The notes beneath the pieces are model-generated. The model searched no databases, was not told the DNA's origin, and saw only the letters and a list, made by a program, of their open reading frames with translations. The translations under genes and the position numbers were made by a program. A DNA stretch of 64,000 nucleotides, from positions 35,590,001-35,654,000 of the forward strand of contig CM119371.1 of the NCBI GenBank assembly GCA_051294905.1. The letters run 5' to 3'. Shown here piece after piece: positions 1 to 47,481 of the stretch (position 1 is the first letter of the stretch; each line of letters opens with the position of its first letter). This DNA comes from Botryllus schlosseri (Eukaryota).

Positions 1-514
1 TATTTCTATCTTAGACAAGTGCTCCACTTTTAACCACGTTCAGGAGTCGAGGCTTGTCCCAAAGCATAATCGAACCGAGTTTTAGCCAATTCTACCGTCT
101 AGTTCGAGTCGAATTTCATCTCTACTTTTCAGAGAAATTGCACGAGTATCATCACCTGGCCAACGTCTTTCGCAAAATTACACGTATAGCTCTCGGATTA
201 AAGACGCCGATATTTCTATCTTAGACAAGTGCTCCACTTTTAATCACGTTCAGGAGTCGAGGCTTGTCCGAAAGCATAATCGAACCGAATTTCAGCCAAT
301 TCTACCGTCTAGTTCGAGTCGAATCTCATCTCCTCTTTTCAGAGAAATTGCACGAGTATCATCACCTGGCCAACGTCTTTCGCAAAATTACACGTATAGC
401 TATTTTCGGCTTGAGACGTCGTCGCGTGCGGACCTCTTGCTGCGCTTCCTAACTGAGTAGTCTGAGATAGACAAGCGCTCTATAATAATTAGTGATCTAC
501 AACGCCAGTATCGG

Positions 515-1882
515 ATGGAAGTCTCTTCCTCTGGCAAACGCAAACTGTCGTGTGTTTCTACGGACGTGGTCAATAGTGATAGTGATAGCGATGCTCGTGC
601 TTCTTTAGCGAAAGTCTCCGCTAAGGATTATGCTAGTCAGCCTACGAAGCAACCTCCTAGCACCCAGGAACCGGAATTGAGCGAGCGACCTCAGGATGGA
701 GCAGGTCAACAACATAGTAGCCAAATGAGAGTCGTGGTATCAGGTGAAGGCCTTTCGTTGAAGCGCCTCCATCCTACAGTAGTGCATAGGGCACTCTATT
801 CATTGATCGGCGAATATGAGGGACCTCGTCCTCTTCGGTCAGGAGACCTTCTAATCACATGCACTAGTCCGAAACAGGTTCAAGCTCTCCTCCAGTCTGA
901 CTGTTTGACAGACAAAGTTTCCGGCTCTAAAATTAACGTAAAAACCTCTCTGTACCCCGAAAAATCATTTGCTAGCAGAGCTGTCATTTCTGGCGTGCCC
1001 CTAGATATCAAGGAGTCAGAACTACTCGACAACCTTAGCGGTGTTGGAGTATCAGCCGTAAAACGCCTTAAGAGGAAAGTCGACAAAGGTTACGACTCCT
1101 GTTCCGCCGTTCTCCTCTACTTCCGCTGTGACAAGGTACCTGAGAGTGTCAATTTCTCTTACCTTCGGTTCTGGACTAGGCCTTATAATCCTCCCCCTTT
1201 GAGATGCTATCGCTGCAATAGGTACGGCCACTCCAAAGAATCGTGTAGAGGAAAAGCAACTTGTAGTAAATGTGGTAGTTCTGACCACGAACATGCCTCG
1301 TGCACGAAGGAAAAATTTTGCATCAACTGCAAAAAACCTCACAGTGCCGCATATGGCGGTTGTAGCGTATATAAAACCGAAGCTAAACTGCAAATTATCA
1401 AAGAACGTACAAAAATCAGTTATTCCGAAGCGAAGGTCGTGTTGAACTCTGCCACCGTTGCTACCTCTTTGCCTACTTCTCATATGGACAGGACTTTTAG
1501 TGAAGTCCTTGCTAACGACTCTACATATTTTCGACAACCACGACCTCGTCGCACTAAAACCAGTTCGATCCTTAGCAAACATACCATTTCCGCTCCTGCT
1601 CCCAATGACGGGGATTTGCGACATTTCAGTCAGACCAAATCGAAAGAAAATACTGTTAGCGATGCTGCTAGCCATAGGCCTACCGAATTGGAAGAGAATA
1701 CCCCTATGTCTTCGTGTCAAACATCCACCCCAGATCTTTCGCAGTTACTTTCCCTACTTGTTGGAATCGTTGAATATACGATGGAGGCTGTCAAATCAGG
1801 TCAATGCAATGCGCTTGAAATCGTTTCCAGAGCATGCCTTAAGCATGGTTTTTCGGCTCCTGCTCCTAAAGTAAATGTCTAA
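515..1882 (+). CDS. LINE ORF1, gag-like nucleic-acid-binding protein with three zinc knuckles
   Basis: 455 aa; CYRCNRYGHSKESC, CSKCGSSDHEHASC, CINCKKPHSAAYGGC; upstream LRSGDLLITC and AVISGVP motifs typical of I/Jockey-group ORF1. Confidence 0.95.
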   Translation: MEVSSSGKRKLSCVSTDVVNSDSDSDARASLAKVSAKDYASQPTKQPPSTQEPELSERPQDGAGQQHSSQMRVVVSGEGLSLKRLHPTVVHRALYSLIGEYEGPRPLRSGDLLITCTSPKQVQALLQSDCLTDKVSGSKINVKTSLYPEKSFASRAVISGVPLDIKESELLDNLSGVGVSAVKRLKRKVDKGYDSCSAVLLYFRCDKVPESVNFSYLRFWTRPYNPPPLRCYRCNRYGHSKESCRGKATCSKCGSSDHEHASCTKEKFCINCKKPHSAAYGGCSVYKTEAKLQIIKERTKISYSEAKVVLNSATVATSLPTSHMDRTFSEVLANDSTYFRQPRPRRTKTSSILSKHTISAPAPNDGDLRHFSQTKSKENTVSDAASHRPTELEENTPMSSCQTSTPDLSQLLSLLVGIVEYTMEAVKSGQCNALEIVSRACLKHGFSAPAPKVNV

Positions 1883-4800
1883 TCAAGCTCTTCGTTTCAT
1901 CCAATGGAATTGTAGAGGTATTTATCGTAAACTACCCGAGCTTAAACAATATATCAATAACCTACCAAATACCCCTGATGTGATATTGCTTCAAGAGACT
2001 CATCTCATCGATAAGTATTCCCCCAAGCTGACGGGTTTTCGAGTCTTTCGTAAAGACAACTCGCTTCATTCCGGTGGTCTGGCCATTTTCGTGCGGGAAT
2101 CTCTCCCCGCGACTGAGATCCAACTTGATAGCCCATCTTGCATTGAAGTGTTATGTATATCCATCTGTCACCTACGCATCTGCAACGTCTATATGAGCCC
2201 TACCGCAATTTCAGAAGATAGCGCGTTTGTTTTCCTTGAATCGCTGTCACGTCGTGCAATAATCTTCGGGGATTTTAATGCCCACCATCTTTCCTGGGGG
2301 CAACGAAATAACCGACGGGGCCGCCTCCTATTTGACGCTTTCGACCAAAATGGATTGGTGGTGTTGAATAGCAGCTCGCCAACCCATCTTAATATTGCCT
2401 CTAACGCCATAAACCGATACTCGCTACTAGATTTATCCATCGCGTCAGCCGACGTATCCTCGAAGTGCCGAACCGACGTCACGGATCGTTTACTGGGAAG
2501 CGACCATTTTATTGTGATAACTACTTTCAAAGAAACGTTTTCAAATGATACAAACAGGAAAAACTCGTGGAATTTTCGCAGAGCAGATTGGGCGGCCTTT
2601 GAAAGAAAAATCGATAGGAGCTTAGAATCTTCGGGCTATGAAGATGTCAACTTTTTGAACAAGACTTTCTCAGAATGCGCACTGGACGCGGCGCATTCGT
2701 CAATTCCAAAATCTCATTTCTCGAACCGAAAACCTTCTGTGCCATGGTGGAATGCGTCTTGCGATAGAGCCGTAAGACGCAAGAGAGCTGCTTTCCTCAA
2801 AATGAAACGGACCTTCTGCATGAATGATGTAACCCGATATAAACGCTTGCGGTCGGAATGCCGGAAAATGATTCTTTCTTCTAAAAGGGCAAGTTGGGAA
2901 AACTTCTGTTCTTCTCTGAATGATTCCAGTAATTACTCCAAAGTTTGGAAGGTAGTTCGCTCCTTTTCTGGTGTTCGTTCCTACAATATCATACCTCCGA
3001 TCACTATTGGTGGCGTCGTTACCGGTAGTGACGACAGGTCGAAGGCTGACGCTCTAGCCTTGCACTTTTCGTCGGTTAGCAGTGATAGCAATTACACGTC
3101 AGCATTCCGAACAAGGAAGGAAGCGGTTGAGAATCAAATATCCTCCCGAATCACCAGTCTCTCAGCGCCTAACAATGATATCATTAACGATCCTTTTTCC
3201 ATGGCCGAACTGAAATCAGCCATTTCGTCGCGAGGAAACACCAGCCCGGGCTTGGACGATATCGCTTACCCCATGTTAAAGCACTTGTCTGACAAGTCTC
3301 TAACATATATTCTCCGTTTGATCAACTCTTCTTGGAGTAATGGCCTTCTTCCCGACACCTGGAAACACTCTGTTGTTGTCCCCATATTGAAAGGTGAGAA
3401 AGACCCAGCTGCGGCTAAATCCTATCGTCCCATTTCGCTGACTAGTCACCTATGTAAAGTAATGGAGGTGATGGTAACGAGGCGCTTGAGATGGCACTTG
3501 GAATCTAACTCCCTTCTCAACGCCGCTCAGTCCGGATTTCGTCATGGGCGTAGCACCATGGATAACATCATGCAACTTCATGATACCGTGTACAAAGCGG
3601 TCAACAATCGGTATTCCGTGATTGCAGTCTTTTTGGACATCCAATCCGCGTATGATATGGTATGGCGCAACGGTCTTCTGTTCAAACTAACAGAGCTTGG
3701 AATAAAGGGCCAAACGTTGAATTGGATAAATAATTTTCTGTCACACCGATCTTTTCAAGTTCGAGTTGGTGGTTCTCTCTCCAACGTTCATTTTTTAAAA
3801 AATGGCCTGCCACAGGGCAGTGTCATCAGCCCTCTGTTCTTTGCAATCATGATGGCCGATCTTCCCCTGTTGGTAAACACCTCTCATGCCCTATTCGCCG
3901 ACGACCTCTTACTTTGGGATTGCGGTCTCTCCATCCCAGACCTACTTCTGTCCATGCAGCGCTCTCTGGACTCCATACAAGAATGGTGTGACAAGTGGGG
4001 TATGCTCTTGTCCAAATCCAAAACCGTTGCAATGTTATTTACACGAAAAAGAAAAATACCTCCTCTTGCTCTCCAACTGGATGGTTCGAATATACCGTTC
4101 GTGGAAACATTCAAATATCTCGGCGTCGTTTTTGATAAGAGGCTATCCTACAAAGCACATATCGAATACATTTCCTCTAAATGTAGTAAAAGATTGAATT
4201 TGTTGAGAGCTCTAACTGGGACAAGTTGGGGAGCCAGTAAGAAGAGTCTCCTGTGTGTCTACCGTTCCCTCGTTCGCTCCATCATGGAGTACGGAATGCC
4301 GGCGTACTTTTTTGCACCGGTCACGCATCTGAAGAAGATCCAGGTTATCCAGAGTAAAGCTTTACGGATCTGTACAAATGCCATGCGCAGCACCCCGATT
4401 TGCGTGATTCAAGCCGAATGTCGGGAAATGCCTCTGCATCTGCGGCACAAGTTTATTTCAATGAATTACCGGTGCCACCTGATGAACCAGGACCCGAGAA
4501 ACTCGTTCATCAGCCAAATTATTGAAGATTCCTGGCATGACATTTACTGTCTCACAAATCCAAGCTTTCAGACATTCAACACCTATACTAAATCACCGCT
4601 ATTCAATGGCTTCATATTGGACAGGTACCGGCTTCCCTCGTCTCCTCCTTGGTTGTTACCTCAACCACGTGTTGATTTATCTCTCCTCTCGGAGAATGCT
4701 TTACGTGGCGTTATTAAGGCCTATAACCAGACTTGTTTAAGTCACGTTGCCGATAACTACGATGCACACACGCTAATATACACGGACGGATCTAAATCGC

Positions 4801-5618
4801 TTGTTGGAGGGGGAGCGGCGTTTTGCATCCCTTCACTTGACGTTTCAGTTGCCCAGGCTTGTTCAGCCGAGCACTCTGTCTTCTCGACTGAAATGATAGC
4901 GATCGACCTAGCGCTGAGTTGGATTACACGAAATCGCAACTCGTCAACCGAATATCTGATCATGTCAGATTGTTCGAGTGCCCTGGCTTGCATTCGTAAC
5001 TTCAACATGTATCCTCGCCATAAGCTGGTTTATGATATTTTATTCTCCCTGTCTCGATTGAGGGAACTCGACGTCAACGTATCATTCCTTTGGATTCCCG
5101 GCCATGTGGGCATTCACGGCAATGAAGAAGCTGACAGATTGGCAAAGAATGTCTCCACCACTCCGTCAATGTCCGAAGATATGCCGACGCTCTCCGAACA
5201 AGAAGCCCGGCACATAATCCGTCGCCACTGCATGGCATTGTGGGATCAAGAATACCAGAGCTCCGAAAACGGCCTACGTTACAAGTCCTTCAACAGTTCT
5301 GTTCTACATCCTTCCCCTGGTTATGGTAATCGCCTTTATGATAGTATAATCCTTCGATTGCAATCAGGTCATTGTCGATTAAATGGCCATTTGTTCAAAC
5401 TTGGAATGGTAGACTCTCCTGCGTGTTGTTACTGCCGCTACCCCGAAACTGTGGATCATTTCTTAATTAGTTGCCCTAAATATGACTTTCATCGTTCATT
5501 TCTTATTGATAAATGTGTTCAATTAAAAGTGAATTTCTGTATTTATGATTTGCTCACTGATTCTCGTATAGTCCCGTATGTCGTTGAATTTGTGTTATCG
5601 TGCAACCGCTATTTATAA
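1875..5618 (+). CDS. LINE ORF2: AP endonuclease + reverse transcriptase + RNase H + C-terminal CCHC finger
   Basis: 1247 aa; APE motifs QWNCRG, LLQET, GDFNAH, SDH; RT motifs YRPISLTS, QSGFR, FLDIQSAYD, GLPQGSVISP, FADD, KYLGV; RNase H motifs YTDGS, WIPGHVGIHGNEEAD; CCYC…ETVDHFLISC; overlaps ORF1 by 8 nt. Confidence 0.97.
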   Translation: MSNQALRFIQWNCRGIYRKLPELKQYINNLPNTPDVILLQETHLIDKYSPKLTGFRVFRKDNSLHSGGLAIFVRESLPATEIQLDSPSCIEVLCISICHLRICNVYMSPTAISEDSAFVFLESLSRRAIIFGDFNAHHLSWGQRNNRRGRLLFDAFDQNGLVVLNSSSPTHLNIASNAINRYSLLDLSIASADVSSKCRTDVTDRLLGSDHFIVITTFKETFSNDTNRKNSWNFRRADWAAFERKIDRSLESSGYEDVNFLNKTFSECALDAAHSSIPKSHFSNRKPSVPWWNASCDRAVRRKRAAFLKMKRTFCMNDVTRYKRLRSECRKMILSSKRASWENFCSSLNDSSNYSKVWKVVRSFSGVRSYNIIPPITIGGVVTGSDDRSKADALALHFSSVSSDSNYTSAFRTRKEAVENQISSRITSLSAPNNDIINDPFSMAELKSAISSRGNTSPGLDDIAYPMLKHLSDKSLTYILRLINSSWSNGLLPDTWKHSVVVPILKGEKDPAAAKSYRPISLTSHLCKVMEVMVTRRLRWHLESNSLLNAAQSGFRHGRSTMDNIMQLHDTVYKAVNNRYSVIAVFLDIQSAYDMVWRNGLLFKLTELGIKGQTLNWINNFLSHRSFQVRVGGSLSNVHFLKNGLPQGSVISPLFFAIMMADLPLLVNTSHALFADDLLLWDCGLSIPDLLLSMQRSLDSIQEWCDKWGMLLSKSKTVAMLFTRKRKIPPLALQLDGSNIPFVETFKYLGVVFDKRLSYKAHIEYISSKCSKRLNLLRALTGTSWGASKKSLLCVYRSLVRSIMEYGMPAYFFAPVTHLKKIQVIQSKALRICTNAMRSTPICVIQAECREMPLHLRHKFISMNYRCHLMNQDPRNSFISQIIEDSWHDIYCLTNPSFQTFNTYTKSPLFNGFILDRYRLPSSPPWLLPQPRVDLSLLSENALRGVIKAYNQTCLSHVADNYDAHTLIYTDGSKSLVGGGAAFCIPSLDVSVAQACSAEHSVFSTEMIAIDLALSWITRNRNSSTEYLIMSDCSSALACIRNFNMYPRHKLVYDILFSLSRLRELDVNVSFLWIPGHVGIHGNEEADRLAKNVSTTPSMSEDMPTLSEQEARHIIRRHCMALWDQEYQSSENGLRYKSFNSSVLHPSPGYGNRLYDSIILRLQSGHCRLNGHLFKLGMVDSPACCYCRYPETVDHFLISCPKYDFHRSFLIDKCVQLKVNFCIYDLLTDSRIVPYVVEFVLSCNRYL

Positions 5619-5766
5619 ACGTATAGTCTATAATTTATTTCTGTAATGTTCGTGAGTGAATCAATTTTTGGAATCACCTTAGCTCTCTTGATTGATTCTA
5701 CATCATTGTGCTATTGATCATTATTTCGTGTTAACTCCCTTATCTGTGTACTATGCTCAATGACTG

Positions 5767-5827
5767 TGGTGCAAAAGGCCGTCAGGCGATAAGCGCCAGT
5801 TTTTTGTTTAATAAACAACAACAACAA
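5767..5827 (+). other. LINE 3' end: stem-loop, polyA signal and (CAA)n tail
   Basis: TGGTGC (5767-5772) can pair with GCGCCA (5793-5798) around an inner GCC-GTCA-GGC hairpin; AATAAA at 5810; CAA x4. Confidence 0.7.
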
Positions 5828-8800
5828 CACGTATAGCTCTCGGATTAAAGACGCCGATATTTCTATCTTAGACAAGTGCTCCACTTTTAATCACGTTCAC
5901 GTGTCGAGGCTTGTCCCAAAGCATAATCGAACCGAGTTTTAGCCAATACTACCGTCTAGTTCGAGTCGAATTTCATTTCTACTTTTCAGAGAAATTGCAC
6001 GAGTATCATCACCTGGCCAACGTCTTTCGCAAAATTACACGTATAGCTCTCGGATTAAAGACGCCGATATTTCTATCTTAGACAAGTGCTCCACTTTTAA
6101 TCACGTTCACGAGTCGAGGCTTGTCCCAAAGCATAATCGAACCGAGTTTTAGCCAATACTACCGTCTAGTTCGAGTCGAATTTCATTTCTACTTTTCAGA
6201 GAAATTGCACGAGTATCATCACCTGGCCAACGTCTTTCGCAAAATTACACGTATAGCTCTCGGATTAAAGACGCCGATATTTCTATCTTAGACAAGTGCT
6301 CCACTTTTAACCACGTTCAGGAGTCGAGGCTTGTCCCAAAGCATAATCGAACCGAGTTTTAGCCAATTCTACCGTCTAGTTCGAGTCGAATTTCATCTCT
6401 ACTTTTCAGAGAAATTGCACGAGTATCATCACCTTGCCAACGTCTTTCGCAAAATTACACGTATAGCTCTCGGATTAAAGACGCCGATATTTCTATCTTA
6501 GACAAGTGCTCCACTTTTAACCACGTTCAGGAGTCGAGGCTTGTCCCAAAGCATAATCGAACCTAATTTCAGCCAATTCTACCGTCTAGTTCGAGTCGAA
6601 TATCATCTCTACTTTTCAGAGAAATAGCGCGAGTATCATCACCTGGCTAACGTCTTTCGCAAAATTACACGTATAGCTCTCGGATTAAAGACGCCGATAT
6701 TTCTATTTTAGACAAGTGCTCCACTTTTAACCACGTTCAGGAGTCGAGGCTTGTCCCAAAGCATAATCGAACCGAGTTTTAGCCAATTCTACCGTCTAGT
6801 TCGAGTCGAATCTCATCTCTACTTTTCAGAGAAATTGCACGAGTATCATCACCTGGCCAACGTCTTTCGCAAAATTACACGTATAGCTCTCGGATTAAAG
6901 ACGCCGATATTTCTATCTTAGACAAGTGCTCCACTTTTAATCACGTTCACGAGTCGAGGCTTGTCCCAAAGCATAATCTAACCGAGTTTTAGCCAATTCT
7001 ACCGTCTAGTTCGAGTCGAATTTCATCTCTACTTTTCAGAGAAATTGCACGAGTATCATCACCTGGCCAACGTCTTTCGCAAAATTACACGTATAGCTCT
7101 CGGATTAAAGACGCCGATATTTCTATCTTAGACAAGTGCTCCACTTTTAATCACGTTCAGGAGTCGAGGCTTGTCCCAAAGCATAATCGAACCGAGTTTT
7201 AGCCAATTCTACCGTCTAGTTCGAGTCGAATCTCATCTCTACTTTTCAGAGAAATTGCACGATTATCATCACCTGGCCAACGTCTTTCGCAAAATTACAC
7301 GTATAGCTCTCGGATTAAAGACGCCGATATTTCTATCTTTGACAAGTGCTCCACTTTTAATCACGTTCAGGAGTCGAGGCTTGTCCTAAAGCATAATCGA
7401 ACCGAGTTTTAGCCAATTCTACCGTCTAGTTCGAGTCGAATTTCATCTCTACTTTTCAGAGAAATTGCACGAGTATCATCACCTGGCCAACGTCTTTCGC
7501 AAAATTACACGTATAGCTCTCGGAATAAAGACGCCGATATTTCTATCTTAGACAAGTGCTACACTTTTAATCACGTTCAGGAGTCGAGGCTTGTCCGAAA
7601 GCATAATCGAACCGAGTTTTAGTCAATTCTACCGTCTAGTTCGAGTCGAATTTCATCTCTACTTTTCAGAGAAATTGCACGAGTATCATCACCTGGCCAA
7701 CGTCTTTCGCAAAATTACACGTATAGCTCTCGGATTAAAGACGCCGATATTTCTATCTTAGACAAGTGCTCCACTTTTAATCACGTTCACGAGTCGAGGC
7801 TCGTCCCAAAGCATAATCGAACCGAGTTTTAGCCAATTCTACCGTCTAGTTCGAGTCGAATTTCATCTATACTTTTCAGAGAAATTGCACGAGTATCATC
7901 ACCTGGCCAACGTCTTTCGCAAAATTACACGTATAGCTCTCGGATTAAAGACGCCGATATTTCTATCTTAGACAAGTGCTCCACTTTTAATCACGTTCAG
8001 GAGTCGAGGCTTGTCCCAAAGCATAATCGAACCGAGTTTTAGCCAATTCTACCGTCTAGTTCGAGTCGAATTTCATCTCTACTTTTCAGAGAAATTGCAC
8101 GAGTATCATCACCTGGCCAACGTGTTTCGCAAAATTACACGTATAGCTCTCGGATTAAAGACGCCGATATTTCTATCTTAGACAAGTGCTCCACTTTTAA
8201 TCACGTTCACGGGTCGAGGCTTGTCCCAAAGCATAATCGAACCGAATTTCAGCCAATTCTACCGTCTAGTTCGAGTCGAATCTCATCTCTACTTTTCAGA
8301 GAAATTGCACGAGTATCATCACCTGGCCAACGTCTTTCGCAAAATTACACGTATAGCTCTCGGATTAAAGACGCCGATATTTCTATCTTAGACAAGTGCT
8401 CCACTTTTAATCACGTTCACGAGTCGAGGCTTGTCCCAAAGCATAATCGAACCGAGTTTTAGCCAATACTACCGTCTAGTTCGAGTCGAATTTCATTTCT
8501 ACTTTTCAGAGAAATTGCACGAGTATCATCACCTGGCCAACGTCTTTCGCAAAATTACACGTATAGCTCTCGGATTAAAGACGCCGATATTTCTATCTTA
8601 GACAAGTGCTCCACTTTTAATCACGTTCAGGAGTCGAGGCTTGTCCCAAAGCATAATCGAACCGAGTTTTAGCCAATTCTACCGTCTAGTTCGAGTCGAA
8701 TTTCATCTCTACTTTTCAGAGAAATTGCACGAGTATCATCACCTGGCCAACGTCTTTCGCAAAATTACACTTATAGCTCTCGGATTAAAGACGCCGATAT

Positions 8801-11800
8801 TTCTATCTTAGACAAGTGCTCCACTTTTAATCACGTTCACGGGTCGAGGCTTGTCCAAAGCATAATCGAACCGAGTTTTAGCCAATTCTACCGTCTAGTT
8901 CGAGTCGAATTTCATCTCTACTTTTCAGAGAAATTGCACGAGTATCATCACCTGGCCAACGTCTTTCGCAAAATTACACGTATAGCTCTCGGATTAAAGA
9001 CGCCGATATTTCTATCTTAGACAAGTGCTCCACTTTTAATCACGTTCAGGAGTCGAGGCTTGTCCGAAAGCATAATCGAACCGAGTTTTAGCCAATTCTA
9101 CCGTCTAGTTCGAGTCGAATTTCATCTCTACTTTTCAGAGAAATTGCACGAGTATCATCACCTGGCCAACGTCTTTCGCAAAATTACACGTATAGCTCTC
9201 GGATTAAAGACGCCGATATTTCTATCTTAGACAAGTGCTCCACTTTTAATCACGTTCAGGAGTCGAGGCTTGTCCCAAAGCATAATCGAACCGAGTTTTA
9301 GCCAATTCTACCGTCTAGTTCGAGTCGAATTTCATCTCTACTTTTCAGAGAAATTGCAAGAGTATCATCACCTGGCCAACGTGTTTCGCAAAATTACACG
9401 TATAGCTCTCGGATTAAAGACGCCGATATTTCTATCTTAGACAAGTGCTCCACTTTTAACCACGTTCAGGAGTCGAGGCTTGTCCCAAAGCATAATCGAA
9501 CCGAGTTTTAGCCAATTCTACCGTCTAGTTCGAGTCGAATTTCATCTCTACTTTTCAGAGAAATTGCACGAGTATCATCACCTGGCCAACGTCTTTCGCA
9601 AAATTACACGTATAGCTCTCGGATTAAAGACGCCGATATTTCTATCTTAGACAAGTGCTCCACTTTTAATCACGTTCAGGAGTCGAGGCTTGTCCGAAAG
9701 CATAATCGAACCGAATTTCAGCCAATTCTACCGTCTAGTTCGAGTCGAATCTCATCTCTACTTTTCAGAGAAATTGCACGAGTATCATCACCTGGCCAAC
9801 GTCTTTCGCAAAATTACACGTATAGCTCTCGGATTAAAGACGCCGATATTTCTATCTTAGACAAGTGCTCCACTTTTAATCACGTTCACGTGTCGAGGCT
9901 TGTCCCAAATCATAATCGAACCGAGTTTTAGCCAATACTACCGTCTAGTTCGAGTCGAATTTCATTTCTACTTTTCAGAGAAATTGCACGAGTATCATCA
10001 CCTGGCCAACGTCTTTCGCAAAATTACACGTATAGCTCTCGGATTAAAGACGCCGATATTTCTATCTTAGACAAGTTCTCCACTTTTAATCACGTTCAGG
10101 AGTCGAGGCTTGTCCCAAAGCATGATCGAACCGAATTTCAGCCAATTCCACCGTCTAGTTCGAGTCGAATATCATATCTACTTTTCAGAGAAATAGCGCG
10201 AGTATCATCACCTGGCTAACGTCTTTCGCAAAATTACACGTATAGCTCTCGGATTAAAGACGCCGATATTTCTATCTTAGACAAATGCTCCACTTTTAAC
10301 CATGTTCAGTAGTCGAGGCTTGTCCCAAAGCATAATCGAACCGAATTTCAGCCAATTCTACCGTCTAGTTTGAGTCGAATCTCATCTCTACTTTTCAGAG
10401 AAATTGCACGAGTATCATCACCTGGCCAACGTCTTTCGCAAAATTACACGTATAGCTCTCGGATTAAAGACGCCGATATTTCTATCTTAGACAAATGCTC
10501 CACTTTTAACCATGTTCAGTAGTCGAGGCTTGTCCCAAAGCATAATCGAACCGAATTTCAGCCAATTCTACCGTCTAGTTTGAGTCGAATCTCATCTCTA
10601 CTTTTCAGAGAAATTGCACGAGTATCATCACCTGGCCAACGTCTTTCGCAAAATTACACGTATAGCTCTCGGATTAAAGACGCCGATATTTTTATCTTAG
10701 ACAAGTGCTCCACTTTTACCCACGTTCAGGAGTCGAGGCTTGTCCCAAAGCATAATCGAACCGAATTTCAGCCAATTCTACCGTCTAGTTCGAGTCGAAT
10801 CTCATCTCTACTTTTCAGAGAAATTGCACGATTATCATCACCTGGCCAACGTCTTTCGCAAAATTACACGTATAGCTCTCGGATTAAAGACGCCGATATT
10901 TCTATCTTTGACAAGTGCTCCACTTGTAATCACGTTTTAGCCAATTCTACCGTCTAGTTCGAGTCGAATTTCATCTCTACTTTTCAGAGAAATTGCACGA
11001 GTATCATCACCTGGCCAACGTCTTTCGCAAAATTACACGTATAGCTCTCGGATTAAAGACGCCGATATTTCTATCTTAGACAAGTGCTCCACTTTTAATC
11101 ACGTTCACGAGTCGAGGCTCGTCCCAAAGCATAATCGAACCGAGTTTTAGCCAATTCTACCGTCTAGTTCGAGTCGAATTTCATCTATACTTTTCAGAGA
11201 AATTGCACGAGTATCATCACCTGGCCAACGTCTTTCGCAAAATTACACGTATAGCTCTCGGATTAAAGACGCCGATATTTCTATCTTAGACAAGTGCTCC
11301 ACTTTTAATCACGTTCAGGAGTCGAGGCTTGTCCCAAAGCATAATCGAACCGAGTTTTAGCCAATTCTACCGTCTAGTTCGAGTCGAATTTCATCTCTAC
11401 TTTTCAGAGAAATTGCACGAGTATCATCACCTGGCCAACGTCTTTCGCAAAATTACACGTATAGCTCTCGGATTAAAGACGCCGATATTTCTATCTTAGA
11501 CAAGTGCTCCACTTTTAATCACGTTCAGGAGTCGAGGCTTGTCCCAAAGCATAATCGAACCGAGTTTTAGCCAATTCTACCGTCTAGTTCGAGTCGAATT
11601 TCATCTCTACTTTTCAGAGAAATTGCACGAGTATCATCACCTGGCCAACGTGTTTCGCAAAATTACACGTATAGCTCTCGGATTAAAGACGCCGATATTT
11701 CTATCTTAGACAAGTGCTCCACTTTTAATCACGTTCACGGGTCGAGGCTTGTCCCAAAGCATAATCGAACCGAATTTCAGCCAATTCTACCGTCTAGTTC

Positions 11801-26800: not shown

Positions 26801-29800
26801 CTCTACTTTTTAGAGAAATTGCACGAGTATCATCACCTGGCCAACGTCTTTCGCAAAATTACATGTATAGCTCTCGGATTAAAGACGCCGATATTTCTAT
26901 CTTAGACAAGTGCTCCACTTTTAATCACGTTCACGAGTCGAGGCTTGTCCCAAAGCATAATCGAACCGAGTTTTAGCCAATTCTACCGTCTAGTTCGAGT
27001 CGAATTTCATCTCTACTTTTCAGAGAAATTGCACGAGTATCATCACCTGGCCAACGTCTTCCGCAAAATTACACGTATAGCTCTCGGATTAAAGACGCCG
27101 ATATTTCTATCTTAGACGAGTGCTCCACTTTTAATCACGTTCAGGAGTCGAGGCTTGTCCCAAAGCATAATCGAACCGAGTTTTAGCCAATTCTACCGTC
27201 TAGATCGAGTCGAATATCATCTCTACTTTTCAGAGAAATAGCGCGAGTATCATCACCTGGCTAACGTCTTTCGCAAAATTACACGTATAGCTCTCGGATT
27301 AAAGACGCCGATATTTCTATCTTAGACAAGTGCTCCACTTTTAACCACGTTCAGGAGTCGAGGCTTGTCCCAAAGCATAATCGAACCGAATTTCAGCCAA
27401 TTCTACCGTCTAGTTCGAGTCGAATCTCATCTCTACTTTTCAGAGAAATTGCACGAGTATCATCCCCTGGCCAACGTCTTTCGCAAAATTACACGTATAG
27501 CTCTCGGATTAAAGACGCCGATATTTTTATCTTAGACAAGTGCTCCACTTTTACCCACGTTCAGGAGTCGAGGCTTGTCTCAAAGCATAATCGAACCGAA
27601 TTTCAGCCAATTCTACCGTCTAGTTCGAGTCGAATCTCATCTCTACTTTTCAGAGAAATAGTGCGAGTATCATAACCTGGCCAACGTCTTTCGCGAAATT
27701 ACACGTATAGCTCTCGGATTAAAGATGCCGATATTTCTATCTTAGACAAGTGCTCCACTTTTAACCACGTTCAGGAGTCGAGGCTTGTCCCAAAGCATAA
27801 TCGAACCGAATTTCAGCCAATTCTACCGTCTAGTTCGAGCCAAATTTCATCTCTACTTTTCAGAGAAATTGCACGAGTATCATCACCTGGCCAACGTCTT
27901 TCGCAAAATAACACGTATAGCTCTCGGATTAAAGACGCCGATATTTCTATCTTAGACAAGTGCTCCACTTTTAATCACGTTCAGGAGTCGAGGCTTGTCC
28001 CAAAGCATAATCGAACCGAGTTTTAGCCAATTCTACCGTCTAGTTCGAGTCGAATTTCATCTCTACTTTTCAGAGAAATTGCACGAGTATCATCACCTGG
28101 CAAACGTCTTTCGCAAAATTACACGTATAGCTCTCGGATTAAAGACGCCGATATTTCTATCTTAGACAAGTGCTCCACTTTTAATCACGTTCACGAGTCG
28201 AGGCTTGTCCCTAAGCATAATCGAACCGAGTTTTAGCCAATTCTACCCTCTAGTTCGAGTCGAATTTCATCTCTACTTTTCTGAGAAATTGCACGAGTAT
28301 CATCACCTGGCCAACGTCTTTCGCAAAATTACACGTATAGCTCTCGGATTAAAGACGCCGATATTTCTATCTTAGACAAGTGCTCCACTTTTAATCACGT
28401 TCAGGAGTCGAGGCTTGTCCCAAAGCATAATCGAACCAAGTTTTAGCCAATTCTACCGTCTAGTTCGAGTCGAATTTCATCTCTACTTTTCAGAGAAATT
28501 GCACGAGTATCATCACCTGGCCAACGTCTTCCGCAAAATTACACGTATAGCTCTCGGATTAAAGACGCCGATATTTCTATCTTAGACATGTACTCCACTT
28601 TTAATAACGTTCACGAGTCGAGGCTTGTCCCAAAGCATAATCGAACCGAGTTTTAGCCAATTCTACCGTCTAGTTCGAGTCGAATTTCATCTCTACTTTT
28701 CAGAGAAATTGCACGAGTATCATCACCTGGCCGACGTCTTTCGCAAAATTACACGTATAGCTCTCGGATTAAAGACGCCGATATTTCTATCTTAGACAAG
28801 TGCTCCACTTTTAATCACGTTCAGGAGTCGAGGCTTATCCCAAAGCATAATCGAACCGAGTTTTAGCCAATTCTACCGTCTAGTTAGAGTCGAATTTCAT
28901 CTCTACTTTTCAGAGAAATTGCACGAGTATCATCACCTGGCCAACGTCTTTCGCGAAATTACACGTATAGCTCTCGGATTAAAGACGCCGATATTTCTAT
29001 CTTAGACAAGTGCTCCACTTTTAATCACGTTCAGGAGTCGAGGCTTGTCTCAAAGCATATTCGAACCGAGTTTTAGCCAATTCTACCGTCTAGTTCGAGT
29101 CGAATTTCATCTCTACTTTTCAGAGAAATTGCACGAGTATCATCACCTGGCCAACGTCTTTCGCAAAATTACACGTATAGCTCTCGGATTAAAGACGCCG
29201 ATATTTCTATGTTAGACAAGTGCTCCACTTTTAACCACGTTCAGGAGTCGAGGCTTGTCCCAAAGCATAATCGAACCGAATTTCAGCCAATTCTACCGTC
29301 TAGTTCGAGTCGAATATCATCTCTACTTTTCAGAAATATAGCGCGAGTATCATCACCTGGCTAACGTCTTTCGCAAAATTATACGTATAGCTCTCGGATT
29401 AAAGACGCCGATATTTCTATCTTAGACAAGTGCTCCACTTTTAACCACGTTCAGGAGTCGAGGCTTGTCCCAAAGCATAATGGAACCGAATTTCAGCCAA
29501 TTCTACCGTCTAGTTCGAGACGAATCTCATCTCTACTTTTCAGAGAATTTGCACGAGTATCATCACCTGGCCAACGTCTTCCGCAAAATTACACGTATAG
29601 CTCTCGGATTAAAGACGCCGATATTTCTATCTTAGACAAGTGCTCCACTTTTAATCACGTTCACGAGTCGAGGCTTGTCTCAAAGCATATTCGAACCGAG
29701 TTTTAGCCAATTCTACCGTCTAGTTCGAGTCGAATTTCATCTCTACTTTTCAGAGAAATTGCACGAGTATCATCACCTGGCCAACGTCTTTCGCAAAATT

Positions 29801-32007
29801 ACACGTATAGCTCTCGGATTAAAGACGCCGATATTTCTATCTTAGACAAGTGCTCCACTTTTAATCACGTTCAGGAGTCGAGGCTTGTCCCAAAGCATAA
29901 TCGAACCGAGTTTTAGCCAATTCTACCGTCTAGTTCGAGTCGAATTTCATCTCGACTTTTCAGAGAAATTGCACGAGTATCATCACCTGGCCAACGTCTT
30001 TCGCAAAATTACACGTATAGCTCTCGGATTAGAGACGCCGATATTTCTATCTTAGACAAGTGCTCCACTTTTAATCACGTTCAGGAGTCGAGGCTTGTCC
30101 CAAAGCATAATCGAACCGAGTTTTAGCCAATTCTACAGTCTAGTTCGAGTCGAATTTCATCTCTACTTTTCAGAGAAATTGCACGAGTATCATCACCTGG
30201 CCGACGTCTTTCGCAAAATTACACGTATAGCTCTCGGATTAAAGACGCCGATATTTCTATCTTAGACAAGTGCTCCACTTTTAACCACGTTCAGGAGTCG
30301 AGGCTTGTCCCAAAGCATAATCGAACCGAATTTCAGCCAATTCTACCGTCTAGTTCGAGTCGAATATCATCTCTACTTTTCAGAGAAATAGCGCGAGTAT
30401 CATCACCTGGCTAACGTCTTTCGCAAAATTACACGTATAGCTCTCGGATTAAAGACGCCGATATTTCTATCTTAGACAAGTGCTCCACTTTTAATCACGT
30501 TCAGGAGTCGAGGCTTGTCCCAAAGCATAATCGAACCGAGTTTTAGCCAATTCTACCGTCTAGTTCGAGTCGAATTTCATCTCTACTTTTCAGAGAAATT
30601 GCACGAGTATCATCACCTGGCCAACGTCTTTCGCAAAATTACACGTATAGCTCTCGGATTAAAGACGCCGATATTTTTATCTTAGACAAGTGCTCAACTT
30701 TTAATCACGTTCAGGAGTCGAGGCTTGTCCCAAAGCATAATCGAACCGAGTTTTAGCCAATTCTACCGTCTAGTTCGAGTCGAATTTCATCTCTACTTTT
30801 CAGAGAAATTGCACGAGTATCATCACCTGGCCAACGTCTTTCGCAAAATTACACGTATAGCTCTCGGATTAAAGACGCCGATATTTCTATCTTAGACAAG
30901 TGCTCCACTTTTAATCACGTTCACGAGTCGAGGCTTGTCCCAAAGCATAATCGAACCGAGTTTTGGCCAATTCTACCGTCTAGTTCGAGTCGAATTTCAT
31001 CTCTACTTTTCAGAGAAATAGCACGAGTATCATCACCTGGCCAACGTCTTTAGCAAAATTACACGTATAGCTCTCGGATTGAAGACGCCGATATTTCTAT
31101 CTTAGACAAGTGCTCCACTTTTAACCACGTTCAGGAGTCGAGGCTTGTCCCAAAGCATAATCGAACCGAATTTCAGCCAATTCTACCGTCTAGTTCGAGT
31201 CGAATCTCATCTCTACTTTTCAGAGAAATTGCGCGAGTATCATCACCTGGCCAACGTCTTTCGCAAAATTACACGTATAGCTGTCGGATTAAAGACGCCG
31301 ATATTTCTTTTTTAGACAAGTGCTCCACTTTTAACCACGTTCACGAGTCGAGGCTTGTCCCAAAGCATAATCGAACCGAGTTTTAGCCAATTCTACCGTC
31401 TTGTTCGAGTCGAATTTCATCTCTACTTTTCAGAGAAATTGCACGAGTATCATCACCTGGCCAACATCTTTCGCAAAATTACACGTATAGCTCTTGGATT
31501 AGAGACGCCGATATTTCTATCTTAGACGAGTGCTCCACTTTTAATCACGTTCAGGAGTCGAGGCTTGTCCCAAAGCATAATCGAACCGAGTTTTAGCCAA
31601 TTCTACCGTCTAGTTCGAGTCGAATTTCATCTCTACTTTTCAGAGAAATTGCACGAGTATCATCACCTGGCCGACGTCTTTCGCAAAATTACACGTATAG
31701 CTCTCGGATTAAAGACGCCGATATTTCTATCTTAGACAAGTGCTCCACTTTTAACCACGTTCAGGAGTCGAGGCTTGTCCCAAAGCATAATCGAACCGAA
31801 TTTCAGCCAATTCTACCGTCTAGTTCGAGTCGAATCTCATCTCTACTTTTCAGAGAAATAGCGCGAGTATCATCACCTCGCCAATGTTTGTCGAAAAAAG
31901 CAAAGCATAATGCACACGACGATTGAAAATTGTATTTTTATTGCACAGAAAATGAAAGGATTGCTTTCCGAATATGAATAGCAGTCAACAATACCGAAAC
32001 ATTATAT

Positions 32008-33159
32008 TCAGGAAGTACTGGATTTTTCACATTCAGAACAAAACCATAGAAAAGATGGTTCACTCCAAACACCATTCGGAATCGGTTGAGGATGGCATTC
32101 ACCATGATACCATGTGTCACATGCATCGCATTTTACCATTTCAGGTTGGGAATGGGCATAAGGCAACTTGCATATACAAAATACTGGCAGGTTTATAGCG
32201 GAGAAGGGGATTGGTGCTGGATCCACGACAAAGAAATCCAGTAAATCGACATGATCTCTTTCAATCATTGTGAGGCACTTCTGCCGAAGTTGCTGCTCAT
32301 ACACCACCGTTTCTGGATTGAACCCAAAACACAGGCTTATGGCATTGGCTATAGCGAAGACACCGCAATCACTACTATTACTTTGCTGTTGGACCCTTGG
32401 AAATAGTATGCTGAGAGTGCTCGAACGCGGTCTACACAGCATTCCGATCGAACATATAGTTTCATCGTTATATGCCGAAGAATTGTAGGCGGAATCATAC
32501 ACGCATATCTGGCCATCTTCACAAAACATATTCGAAACGGTGACCCAATGATTGTTATTTATATTAACTATTTGGATAAATTTTGATTCCTGTGCTGGCG
32601 CGTAGACCAGTCCCGCACGGTCCCGACTATAATACCCGCAAGACGTCAATCCATCTACTTCAGGAAATTGTGTATTCATCATTGACATGAAATGATCCAT
32701 GGTGTCGCTATTTAGCCACTCAGTTGGAGAAAGCAGAATATTACGGCATTGATCAATTCGGCATAATCTAGGCGCACGGGTCCGGATCATTTCAAAACGG
32801 CTTGCAAGGGGTGGAGCAGGCTCGTCACCAATCACCTCAATTTCGGCCGTCCTTTCGAAGCCGCGAAGTTTCGTTTTCGGCGACTGTAAATATCGTCCAA
32901 ACATGTTTTTCGGTTTTTCAGCTCTACCTCTCTTTTTCCAAATTTCAATTTCTGGCTCGGCACATGCGGTAACTCGTTTTTTTCTTCGTTCCGCCTTCCT
33001 TTTTTTGTCGCGGAATGCAGAAATGTTATCATAATACTGGCGAATTAAGGCCGTATTCAGCTCGTCATACACTTTTGCAATTTCAGCCAAGTTAGAAAAT
33101 TTTCGTCCTGGCATTCTCGTGGTTTTCAATTCCTGATTTGACTTTTCACATACAATCAC
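32008..33159 (-). CDS. Ulp1/peptidase C48-like (SUMO/ubiquitin-like) cysteine protease with C-terminal PHD finger; probably the 3' part of a transposon-encoded protein
   Basis: WLNSDTMD, QIVNINNNHWVTVSN (His), VYDS (Asp), QQQSNSSDCGVFAIANA (Gln/Cys); C-terminal CIC…CDAC…YHGEC…WFCSEC is a C4HC3 PHD pattern; AATAAA on the minus strand at 31937-31942; ORF opens at GTG straight after a stop, so the true start is uncertain. Confidence 0.85.
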   Translation of the reverse strand: MIVCEKSNQELKTTRMPGRKFSNLAEIAKVYDELNTALIRQYYDNISAFRDKKRKAERRKKRVTACAEPEIEIWKKRGRAEKPKNMFGRYLQSPKTKLRGFERTAEIEVIGDEPAPPLASRFEMIRTRAPRLCRIDQCRNILLSPTEWLNSDTMDHFMSMMNTQFPEVDGLTSCGYYSRDRAGLVYAPAQESKFIQIVNINNNHWVTVSNMFCEDGQICVYDSAYNSSAYNDETICSIGMLCRPRSSTLSILFPRVQQQSNSSDCGVFAIANAISLCFGFNPETVVYEQQLRQKCLTMIERDHVDLLDFFVVDPAPIPFSAINLPVFCICKLPYAHSQPEMVKCDACDTWYHGECHPQPIPNGVWSEPSFLWFCSECEKSSTS

Positions 33160-34501
33160 TCAGCCCACCACTATCCAAGGTTTCTGGTCCGTTTCGCCGC
33201 CGTATTTCGGAAAAAGCCAGACGCGGACGCCAAATAAACACAGAAAAACCCATACCCTATATTTCACTCATATTTTGTTAAAGTGATATATATACATTTC
33301 GGTCTAGCACTGTCTACGTGCAGATTATGAGAGCATCATAACCGAGGAAGTGAAAGTGCTGATTTCGAGAATGTCCCGATGTATTCAGTTGAAACACCTT
33401 GCTTTGCAACAATGCATACCAAACGTAGTCAAAAACATGATATATTTTGTTCGTGAGCATTTTCAACGTAGCCTAAAGCTAACCACGTACTAGATGTCCA
33501 CATTCAAGTCGAAATACAAGCAATTACTACTAAATAAATACAGTCCATCCTCAAGATTACCGGATCACGACTGACCTATCGATCTCGCTTCCCATGACAT
33601 GCCGCCCTATTTCTTGTCGCTTTCTTTTTCTATACTGTATTCTTTACTTTCATTCAGTGTGCATGCCTCCTCTTTACTACGCCTAGGCCAAGGTGGGTGT
33701 CCGATTCCATTGACAAATCCAAGTCGCTTCGACATCTTCCTGTCTATTCAGTGTATCGCATTTTTTGTGGTGTATTGAAGTGATAAAATTGCTAATAAAC
33801 CAATGATGATGATGATGATGTCGATAATAAATCTGGCGGCCCGTAGCGACTATCACGTTCGGAAAGTGGAGCGGTGGTTGGTAAGGCCAGTCATTCAAGT
33901 CATAAATCGTTTCATTTGCAACACAACGTTGCCATTGACTTTCCCTAAAGCTCTGATAAAAACCCAGGAGTGCCATGTCTGTTCTGGACCCCAATTGTGG
34001 AACAGCATCTCGACAGTCGTCGAGCATGTCCGCATTCAAGTTAAATCACAGGCACTGTTCCCTGTAAGCTGAGTACGTGCAGACTGCACAGTGCTGAGAC
34101 GGTATCTGCGCACAAAAATCGGAACTGATGATTTTAGAACTATTGCCCAGGGTTTGTGCAGTGAGTTGGTGAGTGTGCGCAGGCTGATTTCAGGCAATTT
34201 CTTCTAAACGAATACTAGTTGGCCTTCAGGATTACCGGAGCCATGTCACCTTCATTTTGTCGCTTACGTCTCATACTCGCTGCAGTACCTAAATGTAATT
34301 TAAACTGACATCACAGCCTACGTCCATCAATGCTAAATAATGCTCTAATCTTCCTTCATACATTTTATTTGAAAAGAATTTGAACGAAATTTTGATGAAC
34401 AATATTCTTGGTGTACATCCATCGTACCATGTCTTTGACAACTTTCGCTCCCCATGATTTGTACCCTGCAAACAAGACGAAGAGTTTAGGCGCCTTCATC
34501 C

Positions 34502-34711
34502 TAGGGTTGTATTGGCTCGAGTCAATCTGACTCAGGAGTCACCAAGCCAAGACCGACATTTCACTGTAACCACACTATCGGGATTTCGTCCATTGCTACT
34601 ATGTACTTGAAAATGCGCTCAGAAACTGATGAAAGTGAGGATAATTTGTATATTGTAAATCAAAACCATTCAATATCAACAAACAGGGTTATCGTCTTAT
34701 CAAAAGTGGCT
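34502..34711. mobile_element. Truncated copy of the GACTCGAGTC-rich MITE family, cut off by the inverted satellite copies
   Basis: Starts TAGGGTTG; GCCAAGACCGACATTTCA…GTACTTGAAAATGCG…AAATCAAAA matches 49390-49560 and the reverse complement of the 38422-38859 copy. Confidence 0.75.
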
Positions 34712-35308
34712 TATCGGCGTCTTTAATCCGAGAGCTATACGTGTAATTTTGCGAAAGACGTTGGCCAGGTGATGATACTCGTGCAATTTCTCTGAAAAGT
34801 AGAGATGAAATTCGACTCGAACTAGACGGTAGAATTGGCTAAAACTCGGTTCGATTATGCTTTGGGACAAGCCTCGACTCCTGAACGTGATTAAAAGTGG
34901 AGCACTTGTCTAAGGTAGAAATATCGGCGTCTTTAATCCGAGAGCTATACGTGTAATTTTGCGAAAGACGTTGGCCAGGTGATGATAATCGTGCAATTTC
35001 TCTGAAAAGTATAGATGAAATTCGACTCGAACTAGACGGTAGAATTGGTTAAAACTCGGTTCGATTATGCTTTGGGACAAGCCTCGACTCCTGAACGTGA
35101 TTAAAAGTGGAGCACTTGTCTAAGATAGAAATATCGGCGTCTTTAATCCGAGAGCTATACGTGTAATTTTGCGAAAGACGTTGGCCAGGTGATGATACTC
35201 GTGCAATTTCTCTGAAAAGTAGAGATGAAATTCGACTCGAACTAGACGGTAGAATTGGCAGAAATTCGCTTCGATCATGCTTTGGGACAAGCCTCGACTC
35301 CTGAACGT
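34712..35308 (-). repeat. ~2.8 copies of the 210-bp satellite monomer in inverted orientation
   Basis: TATCGGCGTCTTTAATCCGAGAGCTATACGTGT… is the reverse complement of the array monomer, with 210-bp period. Confidence 0.98.
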
Positions 35309-35920
35309 CTTCTTGCGTACTGTACTTGGTTGAAATAATACTTGCAATAAATCATAGTTGTCTGTTTTGGACATGTTTTACGCGACAGATCTGCATAAAA
35401 TTTGGTATGGACAGAGTTGTATATACGTTTTATCTTGTGTCAACTGTCAGTGTCCAAATCCGGATACAATATCCGGATACGCCATTGTTCGATCATTTTG
35501 GTGATACAACCGTTCATGTTGTTTCATGTCACATTTGGTGGGTACCCTTCGATTTGTGTGATAGAATTTTGTGTGATAACTTCACTCTGGTGTCCTATTG
35601 GGTGTTCCTTTCTTGACAGTTGATTCGGCCATATTTTAAGAGACCGGTTTTGTTTTATAATTGGTCTACGCCTACGGTGCAATTCTTTCATCAGAGTTCG
35701 TGCTTGACTGAGTACATGAAATGCTATCAACACTTCGTTGAATTGAATCAGAATAGCCTATATTGTGTTATACCGTCCAACCGTGCATCCTGGGGTCATG
35801 ACCTCAGAAATCTTGTAACCATGTAGGCTACTGTGTAACAGGGAGAGATTTGTAACCTTGAAACTGGAATCACCGGGATAGTGGCATTTGAGTGACCAAA
35901 TCAAGGTTTAAGCCCTAGTT

Positions 35921-47418: not shown

Positions 47419-47481
47419 GTAAGCAAAATTCGTAGCTCACCAAAACCTATTGTCCATCCATTCAATGAATACTCTACACAG

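What the first reader, a model, noticed from the sequence alone, without database searches (positions are those of the whole stretch)
1..35700. Candidate giant foldback transposon: a Ulp1-protease/PHD gene bracketed by inverted 210-bp arrays, one arm expanded into a >26-kb satellite
Seen: the plus-strand array stops ~120 bp from the stop codon of the Ulp1-PHD ORF (polyA signal ~50 bp from the array), and near-identical monomers reappear inverted at 34712-35308. Established: Ulp1-family proteases and PHD fingers are recurrent passengers of eukaryotic DNA transposons (Mutator/MULE including Rehavkus-type, Ginger, KDZ/Zisupton), and foldback elements have inverted arms built of tandem repeats. 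Inference: the satellite is the hypertrophied subterminal arm of such an element, a transposon-to-satellite transition caught with the cargo gene still attached; 35309-~35700 would be the outer TIR. An alternative is a Helentron/HINE-type element with central tandem repeats.
Basis: partly seen in the sequence, partly recalled or inferred. Interest (0 to 1): 0.85.

Follow-up and report, generated by a model that had tools for sequence, protein, structure and literature searches.

The report
Transposon arm grown into satellite DNA
A broken cut-and-paste jumping gene has three 210-base repeats at its visible end and the same repeat, mirror-wise, running for more than 26 kb on its other side, which is likely its second end overgrown into satellite DNA, a route already described in beetles and flies.

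Summary
The layout is real. About 126 units of 210 bp (1-31898, split by an intact LINE at 402-5826 that the finding omitted) abut the ORF's 3' end; 2.8 inverted units lie at 34712-35308. Two corrections. (1) The ORF is not cargo: it is the C-terminal part of a Mutator-type DDE transposase, cut at the catalytic glutamate and followed by Ulp1-like and PHD domains. (2) The element ends at 35591, not ~35700: 35309-35591 is multi-copy in 4 of 4 runs and runs into varied flanks there. Relatives from another animal share the anatomy (ACC termini, ~240-bp outer TIR, ~200-bp inverted units); one complete 6.6-kb copy has a 9-bp TSD. This matches the Rehavkus group. Best reading: an internally deleted Rehavkus-like foldback element whose 3' subterminal array expanded. 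The left end and TSD lie outside the window and are untested, so fusion with a separate array remains open. The same transition is published (Tetris TIR-220; Tribolium TCsat12, 80.5 kb), and this scan already noted many Rehavkus-like and satellite-armed elements elsewhere in this genome. New member of a known kind.

The parts
1..401 (+). 210-bp units (1.9 copies); the array runs off the window's left edge
   Evidence: TRF; sequence
402..5826 (+). Guest insertion: intact I-group LINE (ORF1 461-1882; ORF2 1875-5618 with endonuclease, RT, RNase H), (AAC)n tail, 12-bp TSD at 390-401 and 5827-5838
5827..31898 (+). Long 210-bp array, about 124 units; inferred 3' subterminal arm; multi-unit duplication blocks, three repeated 236-bp variant units
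31879..32007 (-). Degenerate inner end of the array and 3' UTR of the transposase gene, AATAAA at 31937-31942
   Evidence: junction bridged by a contig of an independent run (X5, 31833-32107)
32008..33159 (-). C-terminal part of a MULE/Rehavkus-type transposase: starts at the catalytic E motif (E codon 33145-33147; first ATG 33112-33114), then basic segment, Ulp1-like CE-clan protease (H204, D222, Q259, C265) and PHD finger
33160..34506 (.). Interior without any trace of the transposase N-terminus; holds a moderately repeated piece near 33090-33290, a very high-copy repeat at 33494-33880 and pieces of it at 34011-34276
   Evidence: tblastn negative; read depth and loose ends
34507..34712 (+). 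First part of a dispersed MITE, cut and joined to the inverted array (1-base overlap): likely deletion breakpoint
34712..35308 (-). 5' arm: 2.8 units of the 210-bp repeat, inverted relative to the long array; outermost unit the most diverged at its start
35309..35591 (-). Outer TIR, 283 bp, terminus ACCAGAGTGAAG at 35591; multi-copy
   Evidence: depth step and varied loose ends at 35591-35593
35592..35600 (+). Predicted 9-bp target-site duplication GTCCTATTG (its partner would precede the unseen left end)
   Evidence: inferred from the 9-bp TSD of relative L012 and PMC6446971; occurs once in the window

Best explanation
This is an internally deleted Mutator-type (Rehavkus-like) foldback DNA transposon whose visible end at 35591 carries a 283-bp outer repeat and 2.8 units of 210 bp, and the >26-kb array beside the transposase remnant is likely its opposite (3') subterminal arm, likely expanded in place by unequal exchange. 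Shown: terminus, inverted geometry, transposase identity, native-looking array-to-gene junction, multi-unit duplication blocks. Inferred sequence of events: (1) an autonomous element with short arrays in both arms, as in relatives with 2-9 units, inserted with a 9-bp TSD; (2) guest repeats landed in its interior and deletions removed the first two catalytic aspartates and part of the 5' arm, so it could move only with a helper transposase; (3) the 3' array grew outward by repeated block duplication, most recently in its middle; (4) an intact LINE inserted in the grown array. The arm is now probably too long for the copy to move. In intact relatives the units would be extra transposase-binding sites (shown for Muta1, PMC5499845), the PHD is predicted to read H3K4me3-type marks, and the protease is predicted to remove SUMO or a related tag; none of these functions was tested.
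For: Terminus: 35309-35591 has contig depth 1126-6138 in run X1 against 6.5-11 in most bins beyond 35614, the same step in 4 of 4 runs, and loose ends at 35591-35593 disagree among themselves (agreement 0.57-0.68) (depth is a hint, not a copy number). Transposase: of 157 proteins held, only P0010, P0009, P0050 (and weakly P0081, P0006) match residues 1-100 of the ORF; P0009 aligns 40% over 312 columns, E=2e-63; P0050, P0158, P0009 and P0163 all carry D, D, CxxH 44-46 residues after D2, W/F and E, the MULE/hAT signature given in PMC5499845; P0050 has a weak Pfam MULE hit, E=0.0014, below cut-off. Family anatomy: among 68 loci with this transposase (51 after merging duplicates), 21 have 177-205-bp tandem arrays and 16 have an ACC-type terminus facing the gene; 11 of 12 measured ends have 227-258 bp between terminus and array; L012 is complete, 6.6 kb, with inverted 204-bp units, more in the 3' arm, and TSD CTTTTTGCA on both sides. 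The array-to-gene junction is bridged in an independent run (X5 contig 31833-32107) and has about the depth of the ORF (77.6 vs 83-107 in X1; 16 vs 13.3 in X5). Gene-proximal units carry more private mutations (1.22 per unit) than middle units (0.24), as expected if growth was outward from an older short arm. Exact duplicated blocks of 619-1403 bp at offsets of 3-17 units.
Against: The left TIR and TSD were not seen, and no genome is held. No listed contig bridges 34712 or 35308, and the contigs across 35591 have only 25 and 28 letters on the inner side, under the tool's 31-letter rule. The window's own letters in the outermost unit (for example at 35276) were carried by contigs in X1 only, not in X5, X7 or X13. 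Other copies of the same TIR continue inward into a different sequence (loose ends before 35311 and 35321), and a diverged paralogue of the gene runs on for 512 bp that do not fit the unit (X1 record 2), so this unit belongs to one subfamily only. The 210-bp unit has no similarity to any of 27 relatives' arrays or to its own outer TIR. The unit is abundant in all runs, including a second organism label, so other long arrays may exist to recombine with. Only 1 of 68 loci gave both ends and a TSD, and the loci seem to come from few host genomes. Edge divergence occurs in any satellite and does not prove growth in place.
Confidence: 0.68

Rival explanations
1. Same element and same element-born unit, but the long array is a composite: the short 3' arm recombined with a separately expanded array of the unit (or the left end was deleted), so no matching left TIR and TSD exist.
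For: The unit is far more abundant than the TIR in all four runs (depth about 35-100 times higher; rough, since short contigs overcount). Several copies appear to share the array-to-gene junction, giving substrates for ectopic exchange. The element already shows two deletion joins.
Against: No change of unit type or orientation across 126 units; right-arm units are within 0-4 differences of left-array units; in-place growth of arms is documented for Tetris (PMC4079207).
Confidence: 0.2
2. The 210-bp unit was a host satellite first; this subfamily captured it into its arms, and this copy sits at the edge of a host array.
For: Sister TIR copies have another inner sequence and the join at 35308 is discrete; the unit shares nothing with the TIR or with relatives' units; it is also present in a second organism label.
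Against: Units of about 200 bp at the same distance from the terminus are a family trait in another animal, and those units also differ from one another between subfamilies (183, 204, 205 bp), so turnover of units is normal; the inner junction fades gradually into the 3' UTR.
Confidence: 0.06
3. The inverted block (34712-35591) is an independent short insertion or an assembly error unrelated to the gene and long array.
For: Its inner edge cuts a MITE whose other half is not found to the right; joins at 34712 and 35308 are not bridged by listed contigs.
Against: An independent insertion would need a second terminus at 34712, and the terminal 19-mer occurs once in the window. Interior contigs next to the block are deeper (24.6-32.2) than the outside flank (6.8) in X1, which suggests that interior and end were copied together. 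The block faces the transposase exactly as 5' arms do in relatives. Exact contigs cross 35591 in two runs of two studies.
Confidence: 0.05
4. A Helentron/HINE or Ginger-type element with central tandem repeats and a Ulp1-PHD passenger.
For: Ulp1-PHD modules are shared by several superfamilies: among 30 homologues scanned were one with an integrase zinc finger and two with SWIM; Ginger1 carries Ulp1 and PHD (PMC2836005).
Against: The ORF's first 100 residues match only the MULE-type family; no Rep/helicase or integrase ORF in 26000-36000; relatives have long TIRs and a 9-bp TSD.
Confidence: 0.01

Closest known systems
Rehavkus DNA transposons (Repbase group in or beside MULE; PMC6446971, passages and supplementary table rows read)
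   Same: 9-bp TSD (in relative L012), TIR of 26-412 bp (283 bp here), one transposase ORF with a PHD finger, tandem repeats before the 3' TIR, foldback arms.
   Different: This copy has lost the D-D part of the transposase; its 3' array is at least 126 units rather than a few; the paper's table names no Ulp1 domain for Rehavkus; sequence placement against Repbase Rehavkus proteins could not be tested.
Tribolium TCsat12/TfSat25, TfSat23, TCsat23 (bioRxiv 10.1101/2024.12.02.626372, passages read; PMC10218199, passages)
   Same: Subterminal units of Rehavkus-like elements expanded from 2-12 copies to long arrays (up to 50 inside elements; 522 units, 80.5 kb for TCsat12).
   Different: Here the long array is visibly joined to the transposase remnant with the short arm and terminus on the other side. 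The passages read do not say whether the 80.5-kb array keeps such joins; Suppl. Fig. 15, which I could not see, may.
Tetris foldback element and TIR-220 satellite of Drosophila virilis (PMC4079207, abstract and part 1 of 2 of the Discussion read)
   Same: Outer TIR domain, ~220-bp internal tandem units, amplification inside the element to arrays of up to 66 copies.
   Different: Tetris has no transposase and its superfamily was inferred from the TSD; its unit shares 37 bp with the outer TIR, whereas this unit shares nothing detectable.
Ulp1/PHD-bearing Ginger1 and Mutator transposases (PMC2836005, passages read)
   Same: C-terminal Ulp1 protease plus PHD fused to a DDE transposase.
   Different: Ginger1 has an integrase-type core; the core here is MULE-type.

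Membership tests
MULE/Mutator superfamily | DDE triad with (C/D)xxH after the second D and W before E | tested here: met
   Met in 4 of 4 long family members checked (one has F for W; CxxH at 44-46 residues, at or just over the 15-45 quoted in PMC5499845). The window's ORF keeps only E and what follows.
MULE/Mutator superfamily | Pfam MULE domain or structural match to a Mutator-family transposase | tested here: inconclusive
   P0050 MULE E=0.0014, below cut-off; P0009 none. Low-confidence model of P0158 (mean pLDDT 44) gives tied RNase H-fold matches, Z 5.3-6.3: integrases, ISCth4 (Z 5.5, rmsd 3.4, 100 aligned), Hermes (Z 5.3, rmsd 3.4, 96 aligned).
Rehavkus | 9-bp target-site duplication | not testable with these tools
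   For this copy the left end is outside the window. Met in relative L012, 1 of 68 loci with both ends.
Rehavkus | TIR of about 26-400 bp | tested here: met
   283-bp multi-copy outer segment ending at 35591; only one end seen, so its inverted partner is inferred; relatives 227-258 bp at 11 of 12 ends.
Rehavkus | PHD finger in the single transposase ORF | tested here: met
   Pfam PHD E=6e-7 in the same frame as the catalytic E motif.
Rehavkus | Tandem repeats inside the arms, notably before the 3' TIR | tested here: met
   Array follows the gene's 3' end; inverted units follow the 5' TIR. The 3' TIR itself is unseen.
Rehavkus | Transposase groups with Repbase Rehavkus proteins in a tree | not testable with these tools
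Helentron/HINE | Rep/helicase-driven element without long TIRs or a long TSD (features recalled, not from a call) | tested here: not met
   DDE transposase remnant, long TIR, 9-bp TSD in a relative.
Ginger1 | Gypsy-integrase-like core before Ulp1/PHD | tested here: not met
   Residues 1-100 align with the MULE-type E region, not with the integrase-bearing homologue P0096.
Ulp1/SENP (peptidase C48) proteases | CE-clan fold with His-Asp-Cys triad and oxyanion Gln | tested here: met
   H204, D222, Q259, C265 conserved in 90% or more of 86 aligned homologues; model pLDDT 81, Foldseek best hits yeast Ulp1 E=2e-6.
Ulp1/SENP (peptidase C48) proteases | SUMO as substrate | tested here: inconclusive
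   Fold hits include SUMO proteases, the NEDD8 protease Den1/SENP8 (highest TM-score, 0.60 by target) and deubiquitinases; by profile SENP8 E=0.002, Ulp1-like E=0.004. Needs an assay.

The most novel reading that the evidence does not exclude
One transposon copy of more than 100 kb: the 210-bp array is continuous through the LINE-bearing satellite that earlier notes place up to about 72 kb left of the window and ends in the matching TIR with TSD GTCCTATTG. That would be a satellite block longer than the 80.5-kb Tribolium case with both birth junctions, the parent gene and datable nested LINEs all preserved, so growth rate and direction of a satellite could be read from one locus. The still-open protease-PHD frame might then act as a stand-alone anti-silencing protein beside its own satellite.
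Probability: 0.25. Interest if true: 0.6.

Novelty: new member of a known kind. Interest (0 to 1): 0.35.

Why it matters
Transposon arms as seeds of satellite DNA are an accepted route, so the idea is not new. The locus is a clean specimen: parent gene, short arm, exact terminus and long arm lie together, and it yields one sharp prediction (the 9-bp word that must precede the far end). It also defines a little-studied transposase family with conserved ACC termini and ~200-bp subterminal units in at least two animals.

Tried and rejected
No whole genome is held, so no genome-wide count or left end. Search for longer fused forms by shared words found none; the exhaustive search did. tblastn of 157 proteins found no transposase N-terminus anywhere in the window. 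The exact 16-base match of the window's terminus in L064 (8339) and L066 (426) was rejected as a terminus: both share the same upstream flank, so it is internal; these two hits were dropped from the 18 motif hits. The terminal motif pattern was tuned on the loci themselves, so its excess over shuffles (18 against a mean of 0.6) is overstated. L027/L029/L030 have inverted arrays but no terminus within the contig. No homology between the 210-bp unit and 27 relatives' arrays or the outer TIR. The right half of the cut MITE was not found beyond 35309. No Rfam match in 31800-37000. No RNA holder listed; one bulk RNA run, about 6 in 100 read, gave only scattered reads on the ORF (depth 0-1.6 per strand) and no listed splice into it: expression is neither shown nor excluded. 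Of 9 listed substitutions in the ORF, 6 were synonymous, but only 40 of 200 rows were shown and other contigs have frameshifts, so selection is not established. The flank beyond 35593 had no cover in X7 and X13 apart from a small repeat: a hole, not evidence of absence. Local clustering of similar units is only modest (median 12 units against 17 shuffled; 8 of 500 shuffles as low). Literature searches: all five of Ulp1, PHD, DNA transposon, terminal inverted repeats, tandem repeats gave 0 papers; Rehavkus gave 17; further searches. No claim of absence from print is made beyond these.

Full report
Observation. Tandem Repeats Finder gives a 210-bp array at 1-401 and 5827-31898 and an inverted block of 2.8 units at 34712-35308. 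The gap 402-5826 is an intact I-group LINE with two open frames, an (AAC)n tail and a 12-bp target duplication; the finding did not mention it. Of 122 unit intervals cut from the long array, 116 are exactly 210 bp and 96.8% identical pairwise. The right-arm units differ from their nearest left-array unit by 4, 4 and 0 bases. The array fades at 31878-31898, 110-130 bp beyond the stop codon of the minus-strand ORF 32008-33159, with AATAAA at 31937-31942.

The ORF is a transposase remnant, not cargo. Pfam finds Peptidase_C48 and PHD. An exhaustive protein search returned 3846 hits, best 150 listed; nearly all match only the protease-PHD part and belong to various element types (30 scanned). Only a few match the first 100 residues. 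Two of these, P0009 and P0050, and their relatives P0158 and P0163, are long proteins with D, D, CxxH, W/F and E in the order given for MULE and hAT transposases in PMC5499845. The window's frame begins at that E (EKSNQELK against EKNQQELK and EKSMQELK). No trace of the upstream part is in the window. The Pfam MULE hit of P0050 is below cut-off and the fold check is weak, so the superfamily call rests on motifs and anatomy. The protease has an intact H-D-C triad and a Ulp1/SENP fold; its substrate is open, since SUMO, NEDD8 and ubiquitin proteases all match. The PHD is closest to PHF2, PHF8, DIDO and Spp1 fingers, which I recall as H3K4me3 readers.

The terminus. Contigs of four runs laid on 35230-35930 show 35309-35591 as multi-copy, with depth falling sharply after about 35591 in all four, and loose ends at 35591-35593 that disagree with each other, the mark of one end in many sites. 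The end reads ACCAGAGTGAAG and occurs once in the window. The outer TIR is therefore 283 bp. Some copies of this TIR continue inward into another sequence, so the 210-bp unit marks one subfamily. The tool warns that contig depth is not copy number; I use it only as a hint. On 31800-34760, the array-to-gene junction is bridged by a contig of an independent run and has about the ORF's depth, several times the outside flank's, which suggests several near-identical copies with this junction. The interior holds guest repeats, and the right arm's inner edge joins a cut MITE with one base of overlap, so the 5' arm was probably shortened by deletion. The joins at 34712 and 35308 rest on the assembly alone.

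Relatives. Twenty-one loci hold 177-205-bp arrays; 16 hold an ACC-type terminus facing the transposase; 11 of 12 measured ends have 227-258 bp between terminus and array. L012 is complete: 3440-10039, inverted 204-bp units with about 1 copy in the 5' arm and 3.5 in the 3' arm, a spliced transposase with protease-like and PHD-like exons, and the same 9 bases on both sides. The window repeats this plan with a short 5' arm and a very long 3' arm. The units themselves are unrelated in sequence (0 of 27 above shuffles).

Mechanism. Shown: ends, geometry, gene identity, duplication blocks of 619-1403 bp and repeated 236-bp variant units in the array, and more private mutations next to the gene than in the middle (1.22 against 0.24 per unit). 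Inferred: an element with short arms lost its catalytic core, its 3' array grew by unequal exchange, and a LINE landed in the grown array. Subterminal repeats strengthen transposase binding and excision for Muta1 (PMC5499845), which would explain why arms carry them; very long arrays are thought to block transposition (PMC4079207). The open point is whether the long array ends in this copy's own left TIR. No genome is held. Two unchecked earlier notes place a 210-bp satellite with LINE insertions up to about 72 kb further left; if continuous, the arm exceeds 100 kb, but a composite array is then also easier to imagine.

Comparison. Rehavkus is defined in PMC6446971 by a 9-bp TSD, TIRs of 26-400 bp, one ORF with a PHD finger and a minisatellite before the 3' TIR. 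Each feature testable here is met, in the window or in L012; tree placement could not be tested, so 'Rehavkus-like'. Growth of such arms into satellites is published: up to 50 units inside Rehavkus-3_TC and a 522-unit, 80.5-kb array of TCsat12 in Tribolium, and TIR-220 arrays grown inside Tetris. Ulp1 plus PHD on transposases is also known (PMC2836005). Papers seen: passages of 10.1101/2024.12.02.626372, PMC10218199, PMC6446971 (plus six rows of one supplement and names in another), PMC13359780, PMC6431247, PMC2836005, PMC5499845, PMC12628747; abstract and part of the Discussion of PMC4079207. The Tribolium supplementary figures were not seen and may show a case with attached ends. Earlier notes of this scan describe many Rehavkus-like and satellite-armed foldback elements elsewhere in this genome and guess a tunicate host; I did not test these.

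Verdict. Real, correctly guessed in kind, wrong on cargo and on the end coordinate. A new member of a known kind and an unusually complete specimen of a known transition. Interest 0.35.

Noticed in passing
window 402-5826 (+): Intact I-group LINE inside the satellite, both frames open, 12-bp TSD, (AAC)n tail; likely a young insertion that could date the array.
   Followed up: partly
window 37159-38220 (+): Intronless ADP-ribosylglycohydrolase gene (Pfam E=1e-51), 1.6 kb from the element's end; the array thus borders ordinary genes.
   Followed up: partly
window 35921-36777: hAT-like MITE with CAGTGGTT ends and an 8-bp duplication matching at 7 of 8 bases.
   Followed up: partly
window 53124-53739: 616-bp near-perfect hairpin element (93% self-complementary).
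   Followed up: no
window 62441-62961: Small foldback-like element with inverted arms of 15-16-bp minisatellite units.
   Followed up: no
window 33494-33880 and 34011-34276: Extremely high-copy repeat (deepest sequence in all runs laid, also in RNA reads); no Rfam match.
   Followed up: partly
window 34507-34713, 38458-38811, 47091-47287, 49246-49750, 58599-58738, 63308-63404: Dispersed MITE family with GACTCGAGTC-rich ends, six pieces in the window.
   Followed up: partly
window 47469-48350 (+), 57033-57542 (-), 57993-58433 (-): Long helical-looking open frames with no Pfam hit above cut-off; probably exons of host genes.
   Followed up: no
L027 2805-13702 (also L029, L030): Relative with two kinds of unit in its 3' arm (9 x 205 bp then 6.6 x 124 bp) and 3 x 204 bp inverted in the 5' arm: an intermediate stage of arm growth.
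   Followed up: partly
L064 8339 and L066 426: Exact 16-base copy of the window's terminal sequence at an internal position upstream of the transposase; unexplained, perhaps a binding site or an old end.
   Followed up: partly
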